Part shown: in pieces, positions 14,971-36,951 of the stretch
Numbering within the stretch: position 1 is the stretch's first letter
How the letters are laid out: each line of letters opens with the position of its first letter
DNA from: Vicinamibacterales bacterium
GTDB lineage: Bacteria; Acidobacteriota; Vicinamibacteria; Vicinamibacterales; JAMQPK01
DNA: 64,000 nucleotides
Direction: 5' to 3'
Assembly: GCA_963762055.1 (NCBI GenBank)
Contig: CAVXJF010000013.1
Span: 13,877-77,876, forward strand
The notes under the pieces: generated by a model
The model's database searches: none
Seen by the model: only the letters and a program-made list of their open reading frames with translations
Told to the model about the DNA's origin: nothing
Translations under genes and position numbers: made by a program

Positions 14971-16820
14971 GCCGGTGCCTCGCCGGGCTCTGGATCCTGG
15001 TGATGCTGTCCGGCTGCGCGACCGCCACGGCCCTCCGCGACGGGCGGCAAGCGGAAGAGCGGCAGGACTACGATCTGGCTGTCGTCGAATACACGCGCGC
15101 CCTGAACAGCGATCCGGACAGCACGACGGCACGCAGCGGCCTGCAGCGTGCCAGGCTGCGCGCCTCACAGGACCACTTCACTCGTGCCCGCCGTCTTTCC
15201 GCCATGGGGCGGCTCGAAGAAGCCGTCGCCGAGTATCAGCTCGCGTCCGAACTGAACCCGGACAACCGCGTCCTTGCCGATGAACTGAAAGCGACGCAGA
15301 ACCTGCTGCGCGCGAAGGTTCCTGTGAATCGCGACGGCAAGACCGAGCTCGAGGCGCTGGTCGAGCGCATGAAAAATCAGCCTGTGCCGGGCATGGTAGT
15401 GCCCGCCGAGCCGCTGCCAGAGTCGATGAGCTTTCGGAGCGCCGGCAGCGACATCGTCATTCGCGCGCTCGCGCAGCTGGCCAAGGTGAACGTAGTGTTC
15501 GATCCGGCGTTTCAGCCGATACCGATCACCATCGACGTGCGCAATCAGACGTTCGGCGAAGCGCTTCAATCGATTACGAACAGCACAAGAACGTTTTATC
15601 GCGTCACTGCACCGCGCACCATTACCATCATTCCGGACACGCCCGCGAAGCGCAAAGAGTACAAAGCGGAAGTGGTGCGGACCTTCTATCTAAGCAACGC
15701 CGATGTGAAGGAAACGATGGATCTGCTGCGCATCGTGATCGACGCGCGCCGCATCGCTGCAATCGCAGGGACCAACGCCATCACGATCACCGACACCGGC
15801 GAGCGCGTCGTCGCCGCCGGGATGTTGATCGACAGGATCGACAAGGCACGTCCGGAAGTGTTGATCGACGTCGAGGTGCTCGAGGTCAATCGCAACAGAC
15901 TTCGCGAATACGGCCTCCAGCTGGCATCGCCGGGCTCTGGAACGGCCGGGATTAGCGGGAGCATCGACGTCAATCAGCCGGGACTGACGCTCGAAGACCT
16001 CGGAAATCTGACGAGCTCGCAGGTGTTCCTCACTGGCGTTCCCGCGTTGTATTACCGTCTGCTGAAAGAGGACCGGACCACCAGGGTGCTGGCGAATCCT
16101 CAGCTTCGGACCATGGTGGGGATTGCGGCACAGGCGCGATTCGGCGAACAGGTTCCGGTGCCGATTACGCAGTTCTCCCCCATCGCAACGGGCGGTATCG
16201 CACAGCAGCCGATTACCTCGTACGACTATCGCGACATCGGCGTCAACATCGACATCACGCCGAGAGTGCACCTCGACAACGACGTCACGCTTACGCTTGC
16301 CGTGTCCGTCACGAGCGTTTCCGGCGTCGGCTTCGGAGGGATCCCTACTTTCGGCAACCGCTCCATCAAGACGCAGATCAGATTGAAAGACGGCGAGACG
16401 AACATGCTCGCCGGGCTCATCCGCGACGATGAACGGCGGGTGCGTGATGGCATCCCGGGGCTGAGCGATTTGCCTGGCGTCGGACGCATGTTCGGCCACT
16501 CGCGCGACGAGCGCCAGCAGACCGACGTCATTCTGGTGCTGACGCCGCGAATCGTCCGCGTCCTGGAGCTGACGGAGGAAGACCTCCGCGCATTTCAAGT
16601 CGGCCGGGATGCGGGGGCACCCTTTGGAGCCGCCGCACCACCCGGCCCTGCGGCTCCGGCTCCTGGCGGAACTGATCTGCCGCTGCCCGGCAGCCCTCAG
16701 CCCTCGGCTCCCGTGCAACCCGGACCGCTTCCAGGCGCGCCCCCAATTGGGCCGATCTTGCCTCCGGCGCCGCCGCCCCTTCAGCCGCCCCCAAATCCGA
16801 ACCAACCTGCGCCGCAATAA
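14967..16820 (+). CDS. Lipoprotein secretin (GspD/PilQ family) with N-terminal TPR and a Pro-rich C-terminal tail
   Basis: Lipobox LSGC. TPR-like segment. Secretin core LANPQLRTMVG...GETNMLAGLIRDDERRVRDGIPGLSDLPGVGRMFG...DVILVLTPRIV. Final ~60 aa are P-rich. Its ATG overlaps the lolA stop (ATGA). Confidence 0.85.
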   Translation: MSRCLAGLWILVMLSGCATATALRDGRQAEERQDYDLAVVEYTRALNSDPDSTTARSGLQRARLRASQDHFTRARRLSAMGRLEEAVAEYQLASELNPDNRVLADELKATQNLLRAKVPVNRDGKTELEALVERMKNQPVPGMVVPAEPLPESMSFRSAGSDIVIRALAQLAKVNVVFDPAFQPIPITIDVRNQTFGEALQSITNSTRTFYRVTAPRTITIIPDTPAKRKEYKAEVVRTFYLSNADVKETMDLLRIVIDARRIAAIAGTNAITITDTGERVVAAGMLIDRIDKARPEVLIDVEVLEVNRNRLREYGLQLASPGSGTAGISGSIDVNQPGLTLEDLGNLTSSQVFLTGVPALYYRLLKEDRTTRVLANPQLRTMVGIAAQARFGEQVPVPITQFSPIATGGIAQQPITSYDYRDIGVNIDITPRVHLDNDVTLTLAVSVTSVSGVGFGGIPTFGNRSIKTQIRLKDGETNMLAGLIRDDERRVRDGIPGLSDLPGVGRMFGHSRDERQQTDVILVLTPRIVRVLELTEEDLRAFQVGRDAGAPFGAAAPPGPAAPAPGGTDLPLPGSPQPSAPVQPGPLPGAPPIGPILPPAPPPLQPPPNPNQPAPQ

Positions 16821-16821
16821 C

Positions 16822-18372
16822 ATGCGCCGGCAGGGAGTCGCGGCATTGCCTCCTGTGGTGGCGCGCGCGAGCGCTCATGGCACGCGCGTGGCCATCATCG
16901 ACACGCAAGGCTCATACACATACGAGCAGCTCGATCGGTCGTCCTCGGAGATCGCTATCCGGATCCTTGATGGCCGCGAAGATCTCAACGAGAACCGCGT
17001 CGCGTTCCTGATCACTCCCGGGTTCAACTGGGTCGCCGTGCAATGGGCCATCTGGCGCGCGGGCGGGATTTGCGTGCCGTTGCCGATGAACCACCCGCCA
17101 GCCGAGCTCGACTACCTGATTCGGGACGCCGAAACGTCAATCGTTCTCGCCGACGCCGACAATGCCGCGGTTGGCGAGCCCCTCGCGCGATCCTCCGGAG
17201 CGGTGTTTCACACGATTGACCCGCACCCGTCGCATCCAGCAAATGTACGTAGTGTCCGCCTTCAGGCGGACGCGGCGAGTCCGGTTAAAGCCGGACACTA
17301 CGCACAAATGGAAAACGCTCGCGCAACGATCGTTTACACGAGTGGCACGACGGGGCGTCCGAAAGGCGTGGTGACGACACATGCGGCGCTGAACGCGCAG
17401 ATCGAATCGCTCGTCACGGCGTGGGAATGGACCGCTTCAGATCGCACCCTACTGACGCTGCCGCTGCATCACGTCCACGGTATTCTCAACGTCGTGTGCT
17501 GCGCGCTACACAGCGGCGCCGTACTCGAGATGCTGCCGAAATTCGACAGTGAAACTGTGTGGAATCGTCTGTCGTCGGGAGAGCTGACCGTGTTCAGCGC
17601 GGTGCCGACCATCTACCACCGCCTGATTCGTTCATGGGAGGCGGCGAGCCCTGATGTCCAGCAGGCACGTTCTCGCGGATGCCGTGCGATGCGTCTGATG
17701 ATGTCGGGGTCGGCCGCGCTCCCGCGGACTGTTCTCGATCGCTGGCACGAAATCACCGGGCACGTGCTGCTCGAGCGGTATGGCATGACGGAAGTCGGCA
17801 TGGCGCTGTCGAACCCGCTACACGGCACGCGCCGCCCGGGCTTTGTCGGCCAGCCGCTGCCCGGTGTTTCGGCGCGAATCGTCGACGGCGAGCTCCAGCT
17901 GAAAGGACCGGGCGTGTTCTCGGAATATTGGCGGCAGCCCGAGAGCACCGGGGAATCGTTCGTCGATGGCTGGTTTCGCACCGGTGACGCCGCCGTCGTG
18001 GAAGACGGCGCTTACAGGCTGCTCGGACGAACGAGCGTCGACATTCTCAAGAGCGCAGGGCACAAGATCTCTGCGCTCGAAATCGAAGAGGTGCTTCGCA
18101 CGCATCCTTCGATCTCTGAATGTGTGGTCGTCGGTGTCGAGGACGTCGAATGGGGACAGCGCGTCTGCTGCGCGGCCGAACTTCGTGAGGGCGGCACTCT
18201 CGATCTTGACGAGCTGCGGGCGTGGGCCAGGACGCGCCTGGCCCCTTACAAAATCCCGAGGGATCTGGCGTGCGTCAGGCACCTCCCCAGAAATGCCATG
18301 GGCAAAGTCGTCAAACCTGAGGTACTGACACTCTTTGCTCCACCTGCTCGACCTGGGCCCCAAGCATCTTGA
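16822..18372 (+). CDS. AMP-dependent acyl-CoA synthetase/ligase
   Basis: Start at ATG 16822, 2 nt after the secretin TAA. AMP-binding motif IVYTSGTTGRPKGV; GYGMTE-like ERYGMTEVG; C-terminal KIPR...GKV. Confidence 0.85.
   Translation: MRRQGVAALPPVVARASAHGTRVAIIDTQGSYTYEQLDRSSSEIAIRILDGREDLNENRVAFLITPGFNWVAVQWAIWRAGGICVPLPMNHPPAELDYLIRDAETSIVLADADNAAVGEPLARSSGAVFHTIDPHPSHPANVRSVRLQADAASPVKAGHYAQMENARATIVYTSGTTGRPKGVVTTHAALNAQIESLVTAWEWTASDRTLLTLPLHHVHGILNVVCCALHSGAVLEMLPKFDSETVWNRLSSGELTVFSAVPTIYHRLIRSWEAASPDVQQARSRGCRAMRLMMSGSAALPRTVLDRWHEITGHVLLERYGMTEVGMALSNPLHGTRRPGFVGQPLPGVSARIVDGELQLKGPGVFSEYWRQPESTGESFVDGWFRTGDAAVVEDGAYRLLGRTSVDILKSAGHKISALEIEEVLRTHPSISECVVVGVEDVEWGQRVCCAAELREGGTLDLDELRAWARTRLAPYKIPRDLACVRHLPRNAMGKVVKPEVLTLFAPPARPGPQAS
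17248..17302 (+). repeat. REP-like hairpin dimer embedded in frame in the acyl-CoA synthetase CDS
   Basis: cGTAGTGTCCGCCttcaGGCGGACgcggcgaGTCCGGttaaagCCGGACACTACg. It has 11-bp outer inverted arms and two inner hairpins. The second hairpin is the same motif as at 28519-28537 and 36909-36928. Confidence 0.8.
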
Positions 18373-28506: not shown

Positions 28507-28867
28507 GGTCCGGCAGAAGTCCGGCTAAAGCCGGAACTACGTTTTCGATTGTCGACCGTCGACTTTCGACTCTCGACCTCGAGTTTCGACTCTCGACTTT
28601 CGACTTTTGACTCTCGACTTTTGACTTTCGCCTTTCGCCTTTCGCCTTTCGACTCTTCGGCCCACCCCGCTCCCTCGCCCAGTCCGACCGCATCTGCGCG
28701 AGCCCGTCCATGTAGACCGCAACCCGCTCGCGTTCCTCTTCGCTCTGCATCGACTTCAACAAATCGATTGCCTTCGCGAAATCTTCGGCAATCGTCGCGC
28801 GCGAGGTCTGGTAATACAGCCGTTTGATCTCGGCGTGTTTGTCGTCCGCCGACAACATCCTGATCAT
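28469..28867 (-). CDS. Hypothetical protein; structured N-terminus (~65 aa) plus a K/R/S/E tail encoded by the heptamer array
   Basis: MIRMLSADDKHAEIKRLYYQTSRATIAEDFAKAIDLLKSMQSEEERERVAVYMDGLAQMRSDWARE looks protein-like. The rest (KSKVESQKSKVESRNSRSRVESR...) is read-through of the 7-nt repeat. Its ATG overlaps the upstream stop (ATGA). Confidence 0.45.
   Translation of the reverse strand: MIRMLSADDKHAEIKRLYYQTSRATIAEDFAKAIDLLKSMQSEEERERVAVYMDGLAQMRSDWARERGGPKSRKAKGERRKSKVESQKSKVESRNSRSRVESRRSTIENVVPALAGLLPDLTRTFCFSSARL
28507..28540 (+). repeat. REP-like hairpin (GTCCGGCTAAAGCCGGAAC) with a duplicated half-site
   Basis: ggtccggcagaaGTCCGGCtaaaGCCGGAac, immediately after the PolX TAA. The same motif occurs at 36909-36928 and 17279-17296. 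Confidence 0.75.
28541..28660. repeat. TCGACTT/TCGCCTT heptamer tandem array (~16 units)
   Basis: ...tcgactt tcgactc tcgacc tcgagtt tcgactc tcgactt tcgactt ttgactc tcgactt ttgactt tcgcctt tcgcctt tcgcctt tcgactc... Confidence 0.9.
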
Positions 28868-36908: not shown

Positions 36909-36951
36909 GGTCCGGCTAAAGCCGGACCACTTTCGACTTTCCACTTTCGCC
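36909..36951 (+). repeat. REP hairpin (GGTCCGGCtaaaGCCGGACC) followed by ACTTTCG heptamers
   Basis: Perfect 8-bp stem with a 4-nt loop at 36909-36928, then actttcg actttcc actttcg cc. This is the same architecture and orientation as 28507-28660. Confidence 0.85.

What the first reader, a model, noticed from the sequence alone, without database searches (positions are those of the whole stretch)
17248..17302. REP-like hairpin dimer sits in frame inside an acyl-CoA synthetase coding sequence
The 55-nt element cGTAGTGTCCGCCttcaGGCGGACgcggcgaGTCCGGttaaagCCGGACACTACg has 11-bp terminal inverted arms and two internal hairpins. The second hairpin (GTCCGG-ttaaag-CCGGAC) is the intergenic REP motif seen at 28519-28537 and 36909-36928.

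It lies about 40 nt upstream of the AMP-binding P-loop (IVYTSGTTGRPKGV) and is translated as ...NVRSVRLQADAASPVKAGHYAQ... without breaking the frame. Both other strands and frames read the SGF.RT..VRLK.DTT-type peptide, which looks like a recurrent artefact peptide of this repeat.

An extragenic palindrome tolerated inside an enzyme gene suggests a recent insertion into a surface loop. Alternatively, the RNA hairpins may have a function such as translational pausing or mRNA processing inside the ORF.
Basis: partly seen in the sequence, partly recalled or inferred. Interest (0 to 1): 0.62.

Follow-up and report, generated by a model that had tools for sequence, protein, structure and literature searches.

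The report
In-frame REP doublet inside acyl-CoA synthetase
A small mobile DNA hairpin pair (a REP doublet) that normally sits between genes has landed in frame in a floppy, fast-changing loop of an acyl-CoA synthetase in a soil acidobacterium; this kind of "decorated" protein has been described before, so it is a clean example and not a new phenomenon.

Summary
Window 17245-17305 is a complete inverted doublet (REPIN-like) of a GTAG-tagged REP family. The unit is GTAC-GTAGT-GTCCGGC-TTTA-GCCGGAC, with about 300 units in about 209 clusters in this 5.2-Mb Vicinamibacterales MAG. It is one of 16 doublets with the same build.

It is read in frame as about 21 residues (VRSVRLQADAASPVKAGHYAQ) of an intact malonyl-CoA-synthetase-like enzyme, just before the P-loop. 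Among roughly 100 fetched orthologous loci (about 20 from the same genus), only the nearest relative (G011) has it at this site, with the second arm already decayed. Two other species, G012 and G007, carry a separate hairpin insert at a different site. The other same-genus orthologues read at DNA level carry variable 9-nt tandem arrays at the doublet site.

An AlphaFold model puts the insert in an unstructured, low-confidence loop. REPs are otherwise strongly excluded from coding sequence here (a handful of 209 clusters, against 44% of random positions).

RAYT transposase genes flanked by these REPs exist in five relatives. This genome keeps only a 48-codon relic.

Best reading: a RAYT-mobilised insertion in the G000/G011 ancestor, kept because it is stop-free, length-compatible and lies in a tolerant loop. 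A selected RNA-hairpin function is unlikely.

In-frame intragenic GTAG REP dimers are already described (Di Nocera 2013). This is a new member of a known kind.

The parts
17245..17305 (+). Complete inverted REP doublet (REPIN-like), 61 nt: GTAC-GTAGT-[hairpin 1]-GCGGCGA-[hairpin 2]-ACTAC-GCAC. Translated in frame as residues V143-Q163 of the synthetase (numbering from 16819).
   Evidence: Same build as 15 other doublets in the genome: tags outside, 6-9 nt spacer, one GCC-type arm and one GGC-type arm.
17249..17271 (+). REP arm 1: GTAGT tag plus GCC-type hairpin GTCCGCC-TTCA-GGCGGAC. An exact copy of the family's GCC/TTCA variant.
   Evidence: There are 13 identical tagged copies genome-wide. 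It is identical in G011. In the reading frame used, the master TTTA loop would give a TAG stop, whereas TTCA gives CAG.
17272..17278 (+). 7-nt spacer (GCGGCGA) between the two arms.
   Evidence: The spacer range in the family is 6-9 nt.
17279..17301 (+). REP arm 2 in opposite orientation: hairpin GTCCGG(T)TAAAGCCGGAC plus ACTAC tag. It carries a unique C>T change at the top of the stem.
   Evidence: It is the only GTCCGGTTAAAGCCGGA copy, against 148 with C at that position. It is shortened by about 20 nt in G011.
16822..18372 (+). Host gene: an intact AMP-binding (ANL-superfamily) acyl-CoA synthetase. It is closest to malonyl-CoA synthetases.
   Evidence: ORF. Pfam AMP-binding 2.9e-64 and AMP-binding_C 1.9e-17. 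NCBIfam best match is the malonyl-CoA synthase subfamily, below cut-off. PDB 4FUQ/3NYQ at about 1e-68. It aligns end to end with 11 same-genus orthologues with all core motifs invariant.
17218..17319 (+). Hypervariable loop-coding segment (residues about 134-167) that hosts the doublet. In the other same-genus orthologues read at DNA level it consists of 9-nt tandem arrays.
   Evidence: Alignments A1 and A2. G001 and G016 DNA. TRF gives about 10 copies of a 9-nt unit in G005 and G016 and none in this window. AF2 gives pLDDT below 50 and coil for residues 137-166.
17335..17367 (+). P-loop (A3) motif YTSGTTGRPKG, intact, starting 30 nt downstream of the doublet.
28519..28541 (+). Intergenic REP unit of the same family (GTCCGGCTAAAGCCGGAA-CTACG), followed by a heptamer array.
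36910..36927 (+). Intergenic REP hairpin of the same family (GTCCGGCTAAAGCCGGAC).

Best explanation
The element is a REPIN-type inverted doublet of a genus-specific, GTAG-tagged REP family.

Inferred: it was inserted by the family's RAYT (an HUH/Y1 single-strand transposase) into the coding sequence of an acyl-CoA synthetase, in the common ancestor of this genome (G000) and its nearest sequenced relative (G011).

Shown:
- The landing site is a disordered, length-variable loop just upstream of the P-loop strand. In the other same-genus orthologues read at DNA level, this loop consists of in-frame 9-nt simple-sequence arrays.
- This copy is stop-free in the frame it landed in. That is partly because arm 1 is the TTCA-loop variant and not the TTTA master, which would read TAG.
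- The net length keeps the frame, so the enzyme remains intact and carries about 21 repeat-encoded residues.

The insert is a tolerated passenger. It drifts like unconstrained coding sequence: arm 2 is mutated in G000 and partly deleted in G011. A similar older hairpin insert at another loop of the same gene is intact in G012 and has lost its symmetry in G007.

In G000 the cognate RAYT is now only a relic. On this assembly the family therefore has no intact mobilising gene.
For: Family membership:
- About 145 exact TAAA-loop hairpins, 43 TGAA-loop and 17 GCC-type hairpins.
- 306 tagged units in 209 clusters, with a conserved GTAC-GTAGT 5' extension.
- 16 doublets of identical build, including this one.
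- The family occurs in 16 of 19 genomes of the genus and in 0 of 12 genomes of other genera of the order.

Transposase link:
- Y1_Tnp genes are flanked on both sides by these REPs in G004, G014, G018, G001 and G003.
- G000 keeps only codons 5-48 of that gene, capped by REPs, at C16:286215-286346.

Insertion:
- The hairpin core is absent from all other fetched orthologous loci except G011, which has it at the same site. G012 has a hairpin at a different site.
- G000 and G011 are 93% identical over the gene. Arm 1 is identical and arm 2 is shortened by about 20 nt.

Tolerant loop:
- AF2 residues 137-166 have pLDDT below 50 and are coil, between strand 129-133 and strand 168-174.
- Segment length varies from 22 to 40 aa across the genus, with 9-nt arrays at the site.

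Selection filter:
- Only a handful of the 209 REP clusters lie inside coding sequence, against 44% of random positions. One further case is confirmed by Pfam domains on both sides of the insert.
- Only 22 of 96 doublet-by-frame combinations in the family are stop-free.

Host gene intact.
Against: - The exact pre-insertion sequence cannot be rebuilt, because the host segment is hypervariable. The 61-nt element is not a multiple of 3, so an extra 2 nt or a compensating indel has to be assumed.
- A CAAAT direct repeat flanks a 60-nt core (17240-44 and 17305-09). It could be a target duplication, although 65 nt would break the frame and other copies show no such duplication.
- RAYT-mediated mobilisation is inferred from genomic association, not shown.
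- The G011 assembly has several 1-nt indels in this gene. Whether its copy is in frame, or a pseudogene, is therefore unknown.
- The AF2 model rests on only 12 sequences (mean pLDDT 65).
- G000 is 93% complete, so an intact RAYT could lie in the missing part.
Confidence: 0.85

Rival explanations
1. The hairpins are kept because they work at the RNA or DNA level inside the ORF. Possible roles are a translational pause before the P-loop strand, an RNase processing or stabilising site, or a gyrase or IHF target. On this reading the peptide is a by-product.
For: The transcript segment folds very stably (-35.6 kcal/mol, z = -4.5). Arm 1 is 27/27 identical between G000 and G011. REPs elsewhere are reported to act as RNA elements (PMC3733652).
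Against: All other fetched orthologous loci lack it at this site. In G011 the second arm has lost about 20 nt, so the long hairpin and hairpin 2 are not conserved. With 93% overall identity, 27/27 conserved positions is expected about 14% of the time by chance. The older insert shared by G012 and G007 has lost its palindrome in G007.
Confidence: 0.06
2. The insert is recent or polymorphic in the population, or was acquired independently in G000 and G011 at a hot spot, and is not an inherited ancestral insertion.
For: Arm 1 is an exact copy of the family variant in both genomes. The same gene took a second hairpin at another site in other species, so the gene or its loops may be recurrent targets. 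G000 holds one of the largest counts of near-exact copies in the genus (167).
Against: Both genomes have the same position, the same orientation, the same GCC-type arm first and the same left junction (CCAGCAAAT|GTACGTAGT). Arm 2 in both carries lineage-specific decay. The cognate RAYT in G000 is a relic.
Confidence: 0.07
3. Assembly artefact: a REP doublet wrongly placed or collapsed into the gene by the long-read assembler.
For: The related MAGs of this project show 1-nt indel errors.
Against: The ORF is uninterrupted through the element. An independent MAG from another sample has the element at the same site. Typical long-read errors are 1-nt indels, not 60-nt insertions.
Confidence: 0.02

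Closest known systems
Intragenic GTAG-tagged REPs and REP dimers ('REP-decorated proteins'), Di Nocera, De Gregorio & Rocco 2013, BMC Genomics 14:522 (PMC3733652)
   Same: It is a short stem-loop with a GTAG tag, mostly intergenic. A minority lie wholly within ORFs of known proteins. The paper reports that more than half of such inserts are dimers or groups encoding 20-30 aa. The authors propose neutral placement in linkers or loops. Here the insert is a dimer encoding about 21 aa in a loop.
   Different: The lineage is new (uncultured Vicinamibacterales, Acidobacteriota). The host is a metabolic enzyme and not one of the DNA-repair genes stressed in that paper. The landing site is an intragenic simple-sequence array. 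Presence or absence across about 20 congeneric genomes dates the event.
REPIN-RAYT systems (Bertels & Rainey 2011, PLoS Genet 7:e1002132, PMC3116915; Nunvar et al. RAYTs)
   Same: Two REPs in inverted orientation form a larger hairpin. There are hundreds of copies. The family is vertically inherited within a genus. A Y1/HUH transposase gene is flanked by the same REPs.
   Different: By my recollection of that literature, which I did not re-read here, REPINs in Pseudomonas are described as almost wholly extragenic. Here one is translated. The two arms are systematically different variants (GGC and GCC). The cognate RAYT is deleted down to a relic in this genome.
Rickettsia palindromic elements (RPEs; Ogata et al. 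2000, as cited in PMC3733652)
   Same: They are palindromic repeats inserted in frame in genes that stay functional, adding a peptide segment at the protein surface.
   Different: RPE-1 is much longer. According to PMC3733652, RPE-4 and RPE-6 are CGTC-tagged, not GTAG-tagged. RPEs occur in an obligate intracellular alphaproteobacterium. The comparison is one of mechanism, not of family membership.
Malonyl-CoA synthetase MatB (PDB 4FUQ, 3NYQ)
   Same: The host protein aligns over residues 57-499 at about 1e-68 with all ANL core motifs.
   Different: The scores against the NCBIfam malonyl-CoA synthase model are below its cut-off (339 against 558 bits), so the substrate is not established. The pre-P-loop segment is low-complexity in this genus.

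Membership tests
GTAG-tagged REP family | Short perfect stem-loop with a conserved GTAG tetranucleotide at one end | tested here: met
   The unit is GTAC-GTAGT-GTCCGGC-TTTA-GCCGGAC. The tag positions are conserved in about 180-210 of 306 units. Both arms of the element carry the tag.
GTAG-tagged REP family | Many dispersed copies, predominantly extragenic | tested here: met
   There are 306 units in 209 clusters on all large contigs. Only a handful of clusters lie inside coding frames, against 44% of random positions.
REPIN (REP doublet forming hairpin) | Two REPs in inverted orientation at a short, fixed distance, recurring as a unit | tested here: met
   There are 16 doublets with tags outside and a spacer of 6-9 nt in 15 of the 16 (one has none), including C13:31125-31177, which is this element. 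The predicted long hairpin is -35.6 kcal/mol.
REPIN-RAYT system | A RAYT (Y1/HUH transposase) gene flanked by the same REPs | tested here: inconclusive
   Met in relatives: G004, G014, G018, G001 and G003 have Y1_Tnp ORFs of about 160-180 aa bracketed by these REPs, and the HUH motif PDHVHLL is seen in G004. In G000 itself there is only a 48-codon relic between REPs. The genome's single intact Y1_Tnp (C17:975392-975736) is flanked by a different hairpin, GGGGTCAGACCC.
REPIN-RAYT system | Mobilisation of the REPIN by the RAYT | not testable with these tools
   This needs an excision or insertion assay, or population data.
In-frame intragenic REP ('REP-decorated protein') | The element lies wholly inside the ORF of a recognisable protein with the frame preserved | tested here: met
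   The ORF is uninterrupted. The AMP-binding domain match spans residues 15-370 across the insert, and AMP-binding_C lies downstream.
In-frame intragenic REP ('REP-decorated protein') | The element is absent from orthologues, so it is an insertion and not an ancestral sequence | tested here: met
   It is present only in G000 and G011 among about 100 fetched orthologous loci, of which about 20 are from the same genus.
In-frame intragenic REP ('REP-decorated protein') | The element lies in a loop or linker of the protein | tested here: met
   In the AF2 model, residues 137-166 are coil with pLDDT about 30, between confidently modelled neighbours. The caveats are a shallow alignment and a mean pLDDT of 65.
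MITE (TIR plus target-site duplication) | Target-site duplication flanking each copy | tested here: not met
   The flanks of the 16 doublets show only the element's own GTAC extension and no copy-specific direct repeats. The CAAAT repeat at this copy is isolated and would give a 65-nt, frame-breaking insert.
Rickettsia RPE / CGTC-tagged REPs | CGTC tag (RPE-4 and RPE-6, according to PMC3733652) | tested here: not met
   The tag here is GTAG.
ANL-superfamily acyl-CoA synthetase (host gene) | AMP-binding N-domain with P-loop motif, plus the C-terminal domain | tested here: met
   Pfam PF00501 at 217.7 bits and PF13193 at 64.4 bits. YTSGTTGRPKG, the TGD motif and the C-terminal K (GKVVK) are invariant across orthologues.
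Malonyl-CoA synthetase (MatB) | Score above the NCBIfam subfamily cut-off | tested here: not met
   NF005702 scores 339.4 bits against a cut-off of 558. It is the closest family, but the substrate is unassigned.

The most novel reading that the evidence does not exclude
The pre-P-loop loop of this synthetase could be a genuine 'landing pad' in Vicinamibacterales. On this reading, simple-sequence arrays and REP or REPIN insertions are repeatedly taken up and translated. The loop would then act as a contingency-like, rapidly evolving module (length or charge tuning of the enzyme, or an mRNA structure that sets translation rate), and not as neutral junk. The REPIN would be one state of a selected hypervariable region.
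Probability: 0.07. Interest if true: 0.6.

Novelty: new member of a known kind. Interest (0 to 1): 0.3.

Why it matters
This is a well-dated, clean example of how a REP or REPIN can enter a protein-coding gene and be turned into peptide sequence. It comes from a little-studied soil phylum.

- It shows the filters involved: a stop-free variant and frame, and a tolerant low-complexity loop.
- It shows the after-life of such inserts, which decay like neutral coding sequence.
- It documents a REPIN family with its RAYT in Vicinamibacterales, and loss of that RAYT in one species while hundreds of near-identical REPs remain. This bears on models of REPIN population persistence.
- For annotation, it explains the recurrent 'VVSGFSRT / VRLKPDTT / PAEAGHY' peptides and the spurious antisense ORFs in these genomes.

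It does not open a new class of biology.

Tried and rejected
1. REPs preferentially landing next to ACGAAC-type simple-sequence words, which would make the intragenic 9-nt array a natural target. A 6-mer enrichment test on the 40-nt flanks of 209 clusters showed only REP fragments and AT-rich intergenic words. ACGAAC was not among the enriched words. The idea was dropped.

2. Target-site duplication. None was seen in the 16 doublets.

3. Unusual conservation of arm 1 between G000 and G011 as a sign of selection or gene conversion. It is not significant given 93% overall identity.

4. The genome's single intact Y1 transposase as the mobilising enzyme. It is flanked by a different hairpin family and scores below the RayT cut-off (66.8 against 80 bits).

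5. My first codon-usage threshold (0.2) missed the element's own gene, whose flank scores are 0.15 and 0.16. Candidates were therefore inspected by hand. Two pattern hits (C17:199615 and C4:341319) were false REPs.

Full report
**Observation**

The 55-nt string reported at 17248-17302 is present exactly as written. Hairpin 1 is GTCCGCC-TTCA-GGCGGAC at 17254-17271. Hairpin 2 is GTCCGG-TTAAAG-CCGGAC at 17279-17296. As RNA the segment folds into one long imperfect hairpin of -35.6 kcal/mol, z = -4.5 against dinucleotide shuffles.

Hairpin 2 matches the intergenic copies at 28519 and 36910. That is 4 matches in the window against 0.03 expected.

The element lies inside ORF 16609..18372 (+) and is translated without a stop. 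The minus strand over the same bases reads VVSGFNRTRRVRLKADTT inside a spurious 81-aa ORF.

**What the repeat is**

The whole assembly is G000: 5.17 Mb, 17 contigs, 63% G+C. The window is C13:13877-77876.

The hairpin core occurs in three main forms:
- about 145 times as GTCCGGC-TAAA-GCCGGAC;
- 43 times with a TGAA loop;
- 17 times as the GCC variant, GTCCGCC-TTCA-GGCGGAC.

The copies are asymmetric. One side always carries GTAC-GTAGT, and its mirror on the other strand is ACTAC-GTAC. This is the hallmark of GTAG-tagged REPs (PMC3733652).

I counted 306 tagged units in 209 clusters: 128 single, 66 double, 14 triple and 1 quadruple.

Sixteen clusters are inverted doublets with the tags outside. 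Fifteen have a spacer of 6-9 nt and one has none. Each has one GGC-type arm and one GCC-type arm. The element in the gene (C13:31125-31177) is one of these sixteen. With the GTAC extension it spans window 17245-17305 (61 nt).

It is therefore a full REPIN-like member of the family, not a chance palindrome.

**Family distribution and transposase**

The tagged unit (up to 1 mismatch) is found in 16 of 19 genomes of the same genus, at 2 to about 200 copies. It is found in none of 12 genomes from other genera of the order. Record titles place the genus in Vicinamibacterales, Acidobacteriota. Most are long-read soil MAGs.

Y1_Tnp (PF01797) genes bracketed by these REPs occur in G004, G014, G018, G001 and G003. 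In G004 a 160-aa ORF with the HUH motif PDHVHLL is preceded by three direct REPs. It ends in an inverted REP that overlaps its stop codon. That is a classical REPtron.

In G000, tblastn with that protein finds only codons 5-48 (61% identity) at C16:286215-286346. This remnant is preceded by two REPs and cut short by an inverted REP, so it is an internally deleted relic.

The only intact Y1_Tnp in G000 is at C17:975392-975736 (40.9 bits; RayT model 66.8 bits against a cut-off of 80). It is flanked by a different hairpin, GGGGTCAGACCC. G000 is 93% complete, so a missing RAYT copy cannot be excluded.

**The host gene**

From the ATG at 16822 the ORF encodes a 516-aa AMP-binding enzyme:
- Pfam gives PF00501 at 2.9e-64 and PF13193 at 1.9e-17.
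- The nearest NCBIfam models are malonyl-CoA synthase and acyl-CoA synthetase subfamilies, both below cut-off.
- The nearest solved structures are malonyl-CoA synthetases 4FUQ and 3NYQ, at about 1e-68.

It aligns end to end with 11 same-genus orthologues at 67-76% identity, and all core motifs are invariant. The 450-aa neighbouring ORF recurs next to the orthologue in the two loci checked, L002 and L003. The gene looks functional.

**Insertion or ancestral?**

In alignment A1 the stretch between the strand ..FHT and the P-loop strand is the only hypervariable part of the protein.

In other species it consists of peptide tandem repeats: PTHPTH.., PTNFTNPTN.., PTIPTIPTI.., PTFPTFPTPP.., HLSHLSHPSHP... 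These are encoded by 9-nt tandem arrays. TRF finds about 10 copies of a 9-nt unit in G005 and G016, and none in this window. Segment length ranges from 22 to 40 aa. G000 has 34 aa.

Searching all fetched loci (about 100 orthologous loci) for the hairpin core finds it at this site only in G000 and G011.

G011 is the closest relative, at 93% nucleotide identity over the gene. It has the same left junction (CCAGCAAAT|GTACGTAGT) and an identical arm 1. Its arm 2 is reduced to CCGGAAAGCGGACAC by about 20 nt of deletions.

The doublet was therefore gained after the split from the G001/G016 lineages (82-84% protein identity) and before the G000/G011 split. It has since been decaying.

In G000, arm 2 carries a unique C>T at the top of the stem (1 copy against 148) and a T>C in the tail.

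The G011 assembly also shows several 1-nt indels in this gene. Whether its copy is in frame cannot be judged.

**A second, independent event in the same gene**

G012 has a 9-aa insertion, SQVRLQADL, at another place, between helix 35-50 and strand 60-64 of the model. It is encoded by CCAG-GTCCGCCTTCAGGCGGAC-CTGG, an exact GCC-type hairpin core.

G007 has an insert of the same length at the same site, but only 16 of 21 bases match and the palindrome is lost.

Translated REP hairpins thus arise repeatedly in this genus and then drift.

**Why this copy survived**

I built a codon-usage log-odds model from 727 long ORFs. By this test, 44% of random positions lie in an open, coding-like frame extending at least 60 codons each way. 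Among the 209 REP clusters only a handful do:
- this one;
- an ABC-F protein, with the REP between the second ABC domain and the C-terminal domain, confirmed by Pfam;
- an SDR-family protein;
- a PD40-repeat protein;
- an S9 peptidase, at the N-terminal signal region;
- two cases at C-termini.

REPs are therefore strongly purged from genes. The survivors sit in linkers or at ends.

Stop codons add a second filter. Across the 16 doublets, only 22 of 96 orientation-by-frame combinations are stop-free. This copy is open in 3 of 6.

In the frame actually used, the master TTTA loop would read CTT-TAG. The TTCA loop of the GCC arm reads CTT-CAG instead.

**Structure**

The AlphaFold2 model was built from the 12-sequence alignment (mean pLDDT 65, pTM 0.59). 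It gives confident strands and helices up to residue 133. Residues 137-166 are coil with pLDDT about 30, followed by the P-loop strand 168-174.

The repeat-encoded residues are 143-163, so the insert maps to a disordered loop. This fits the length variation seen across the genus.

**Mechanism and its status**

Shown:
- identity of the element as a REPIN-family member;
- in-frame translation in an intact gene;
- presence only in two sister genomes;
- location in a variable loop;
- depletion of REPs from coding sequence;
- REP-flanked RAYTs in relatives and a relic in G000.

Inferred:
- that the RAYT moved it, by analogy with IS200/IS605-type HUH enzymes, which make no target duplications; this is consistent;
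- that the insert is selectively neutral.

Not resolved: the exact pre-insertion sequence. The element is 61 nt, so 63 nt must have been added net, or a nearby indel compensated.

**Rivals**

- A selected RNA or DNA function is unlikely. The structure is absent from nearly all orthologues and is not maintained in G011.
- Independent or recent gain is possible, but it is disfavoured by the identical junction and orientation, the shared decay, and the dead RAYT.
- An assembly artefact is very unlikely, given an independent MAG with the same insert.

**Comparison with what is known**

Di Nocera et al. 2013 (PMC3733652) describe GTAG and CGTC REPs located within ORFs in several species. [quoted passage not shown] They suggest neutral placement in flexible linkers or loops, and they recall the in-frame Rickettsia RPEs.

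Bertels & Rainey 2011 (PMC3116915, listed) define REPINs and RAYTs.

I did not re-test it.

The present case therefore fits an established category. What it adds:
- the lineage;
- the enzyme and the site next to the P-loop;
- the replacement of an intragenic 9-nt array;
- dating by congeneric comparison;
- the RAYT relic.

**Verdict**

This is a new member of a known kind, of modest interest.

Noticed in passing
Orthologous loci L002-L012, L014 (1490-1560, minus strand), L015 (1375-1474), L007 (1892-1984); equivalent to window 17218-17319: In the same-genus orthologues examined other than G000 and G011, the loop before the P-loop of this synthetase is encoded by an in-frame 9-nt tandem array. 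There are about 10 copies, and the unit differs between species: ACGAACCNN, CCYACGATC, CGACTCTCC, and the units encoding SHL/SHP. These give (PTN)n, (PTI)n, (PTF/PTP)n and (HLS)n peptides. A hypervariable simple-sequence region inside a conserved enzyme may deserve its own look.
   Followed up: partly
L010 2854-2871 (G012) and L011 about 2225-2255 (G007), minus strand: There is a second, independent in-frame REP hairpin (CCAG-GTCCGCCTTCAGGCGGAC-CTGG, 9 aa SQVRLQADL) in another loop of the same gene in G012. The G007 copy at the same site has lost the palindrome (16 of 21 bases match).
   Followed up: yes
G000 C16:286190-286430 (outside the window): This is a relic of the REP family's own RAYT. 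Two REPs are followed by codons 5-48 of the transposase, then an inverted REP. The HUH motif and the catalytic Tyr are deleted. Even so, G000 has one of the largest near-exact REP populations in the genus (167 copies).
   Followed up: yes
G000 C17:975392-975736 (outside the window): This is the only intact Y1_Tnp gene of the genome (213 aa; RayT model 66.8 bits against a cut-off of 80). It is flanked by GGGGTCAGACCC / GGGGTCTGACCCC hairpins, which belong to a second, smaller repeat family (13 strict and 68 loose copies).
   Followed up: partly
G000 C17:445707-445734; C17:277059-277081; C15:415019-415041; C17:303758-303780; C15:44696-44718; C4:524816-524869: These are other REPs read through in coding frames. 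The first is in an ABC-F protein, in the linker before ABC_tran_CTD (..VVSGSSENVVSGFSRTPARKK..). The second is in the N-terminal extension of an SDR protein. The third is in a PD40-repeat protein. The fourth is in the signal-peptide region of an S9 peptidase. The last two are at C-terminal ends. Two of them are preceded by a partial duplicate (VVSGS..).
   Followed up: partly
window 28519-28620 and 36910-36950: The intergenic REP hairpins are followed directly by TTTCGAC/TCTCGAC heptamer arrays. This was also seen by earlier readers.
   Followed up: no
L013 / L070 (G011) against window 16822-18372: The G011 copy of the gene differs from G000 by several 1-nt indels (for example CCATCCCGC against CCACCCGC), which split it into three frames. 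The cause is either long-read homopolymer errors or a pseudogene.
   Followed up: no
window 17137-17382 (minus strand): An 81-aa antisense ORF spans the element. It is spurious and exists only because the palindrome is also stop-free on the other strand. Gene callers may annotate such ORFs.
   Followed up: yes
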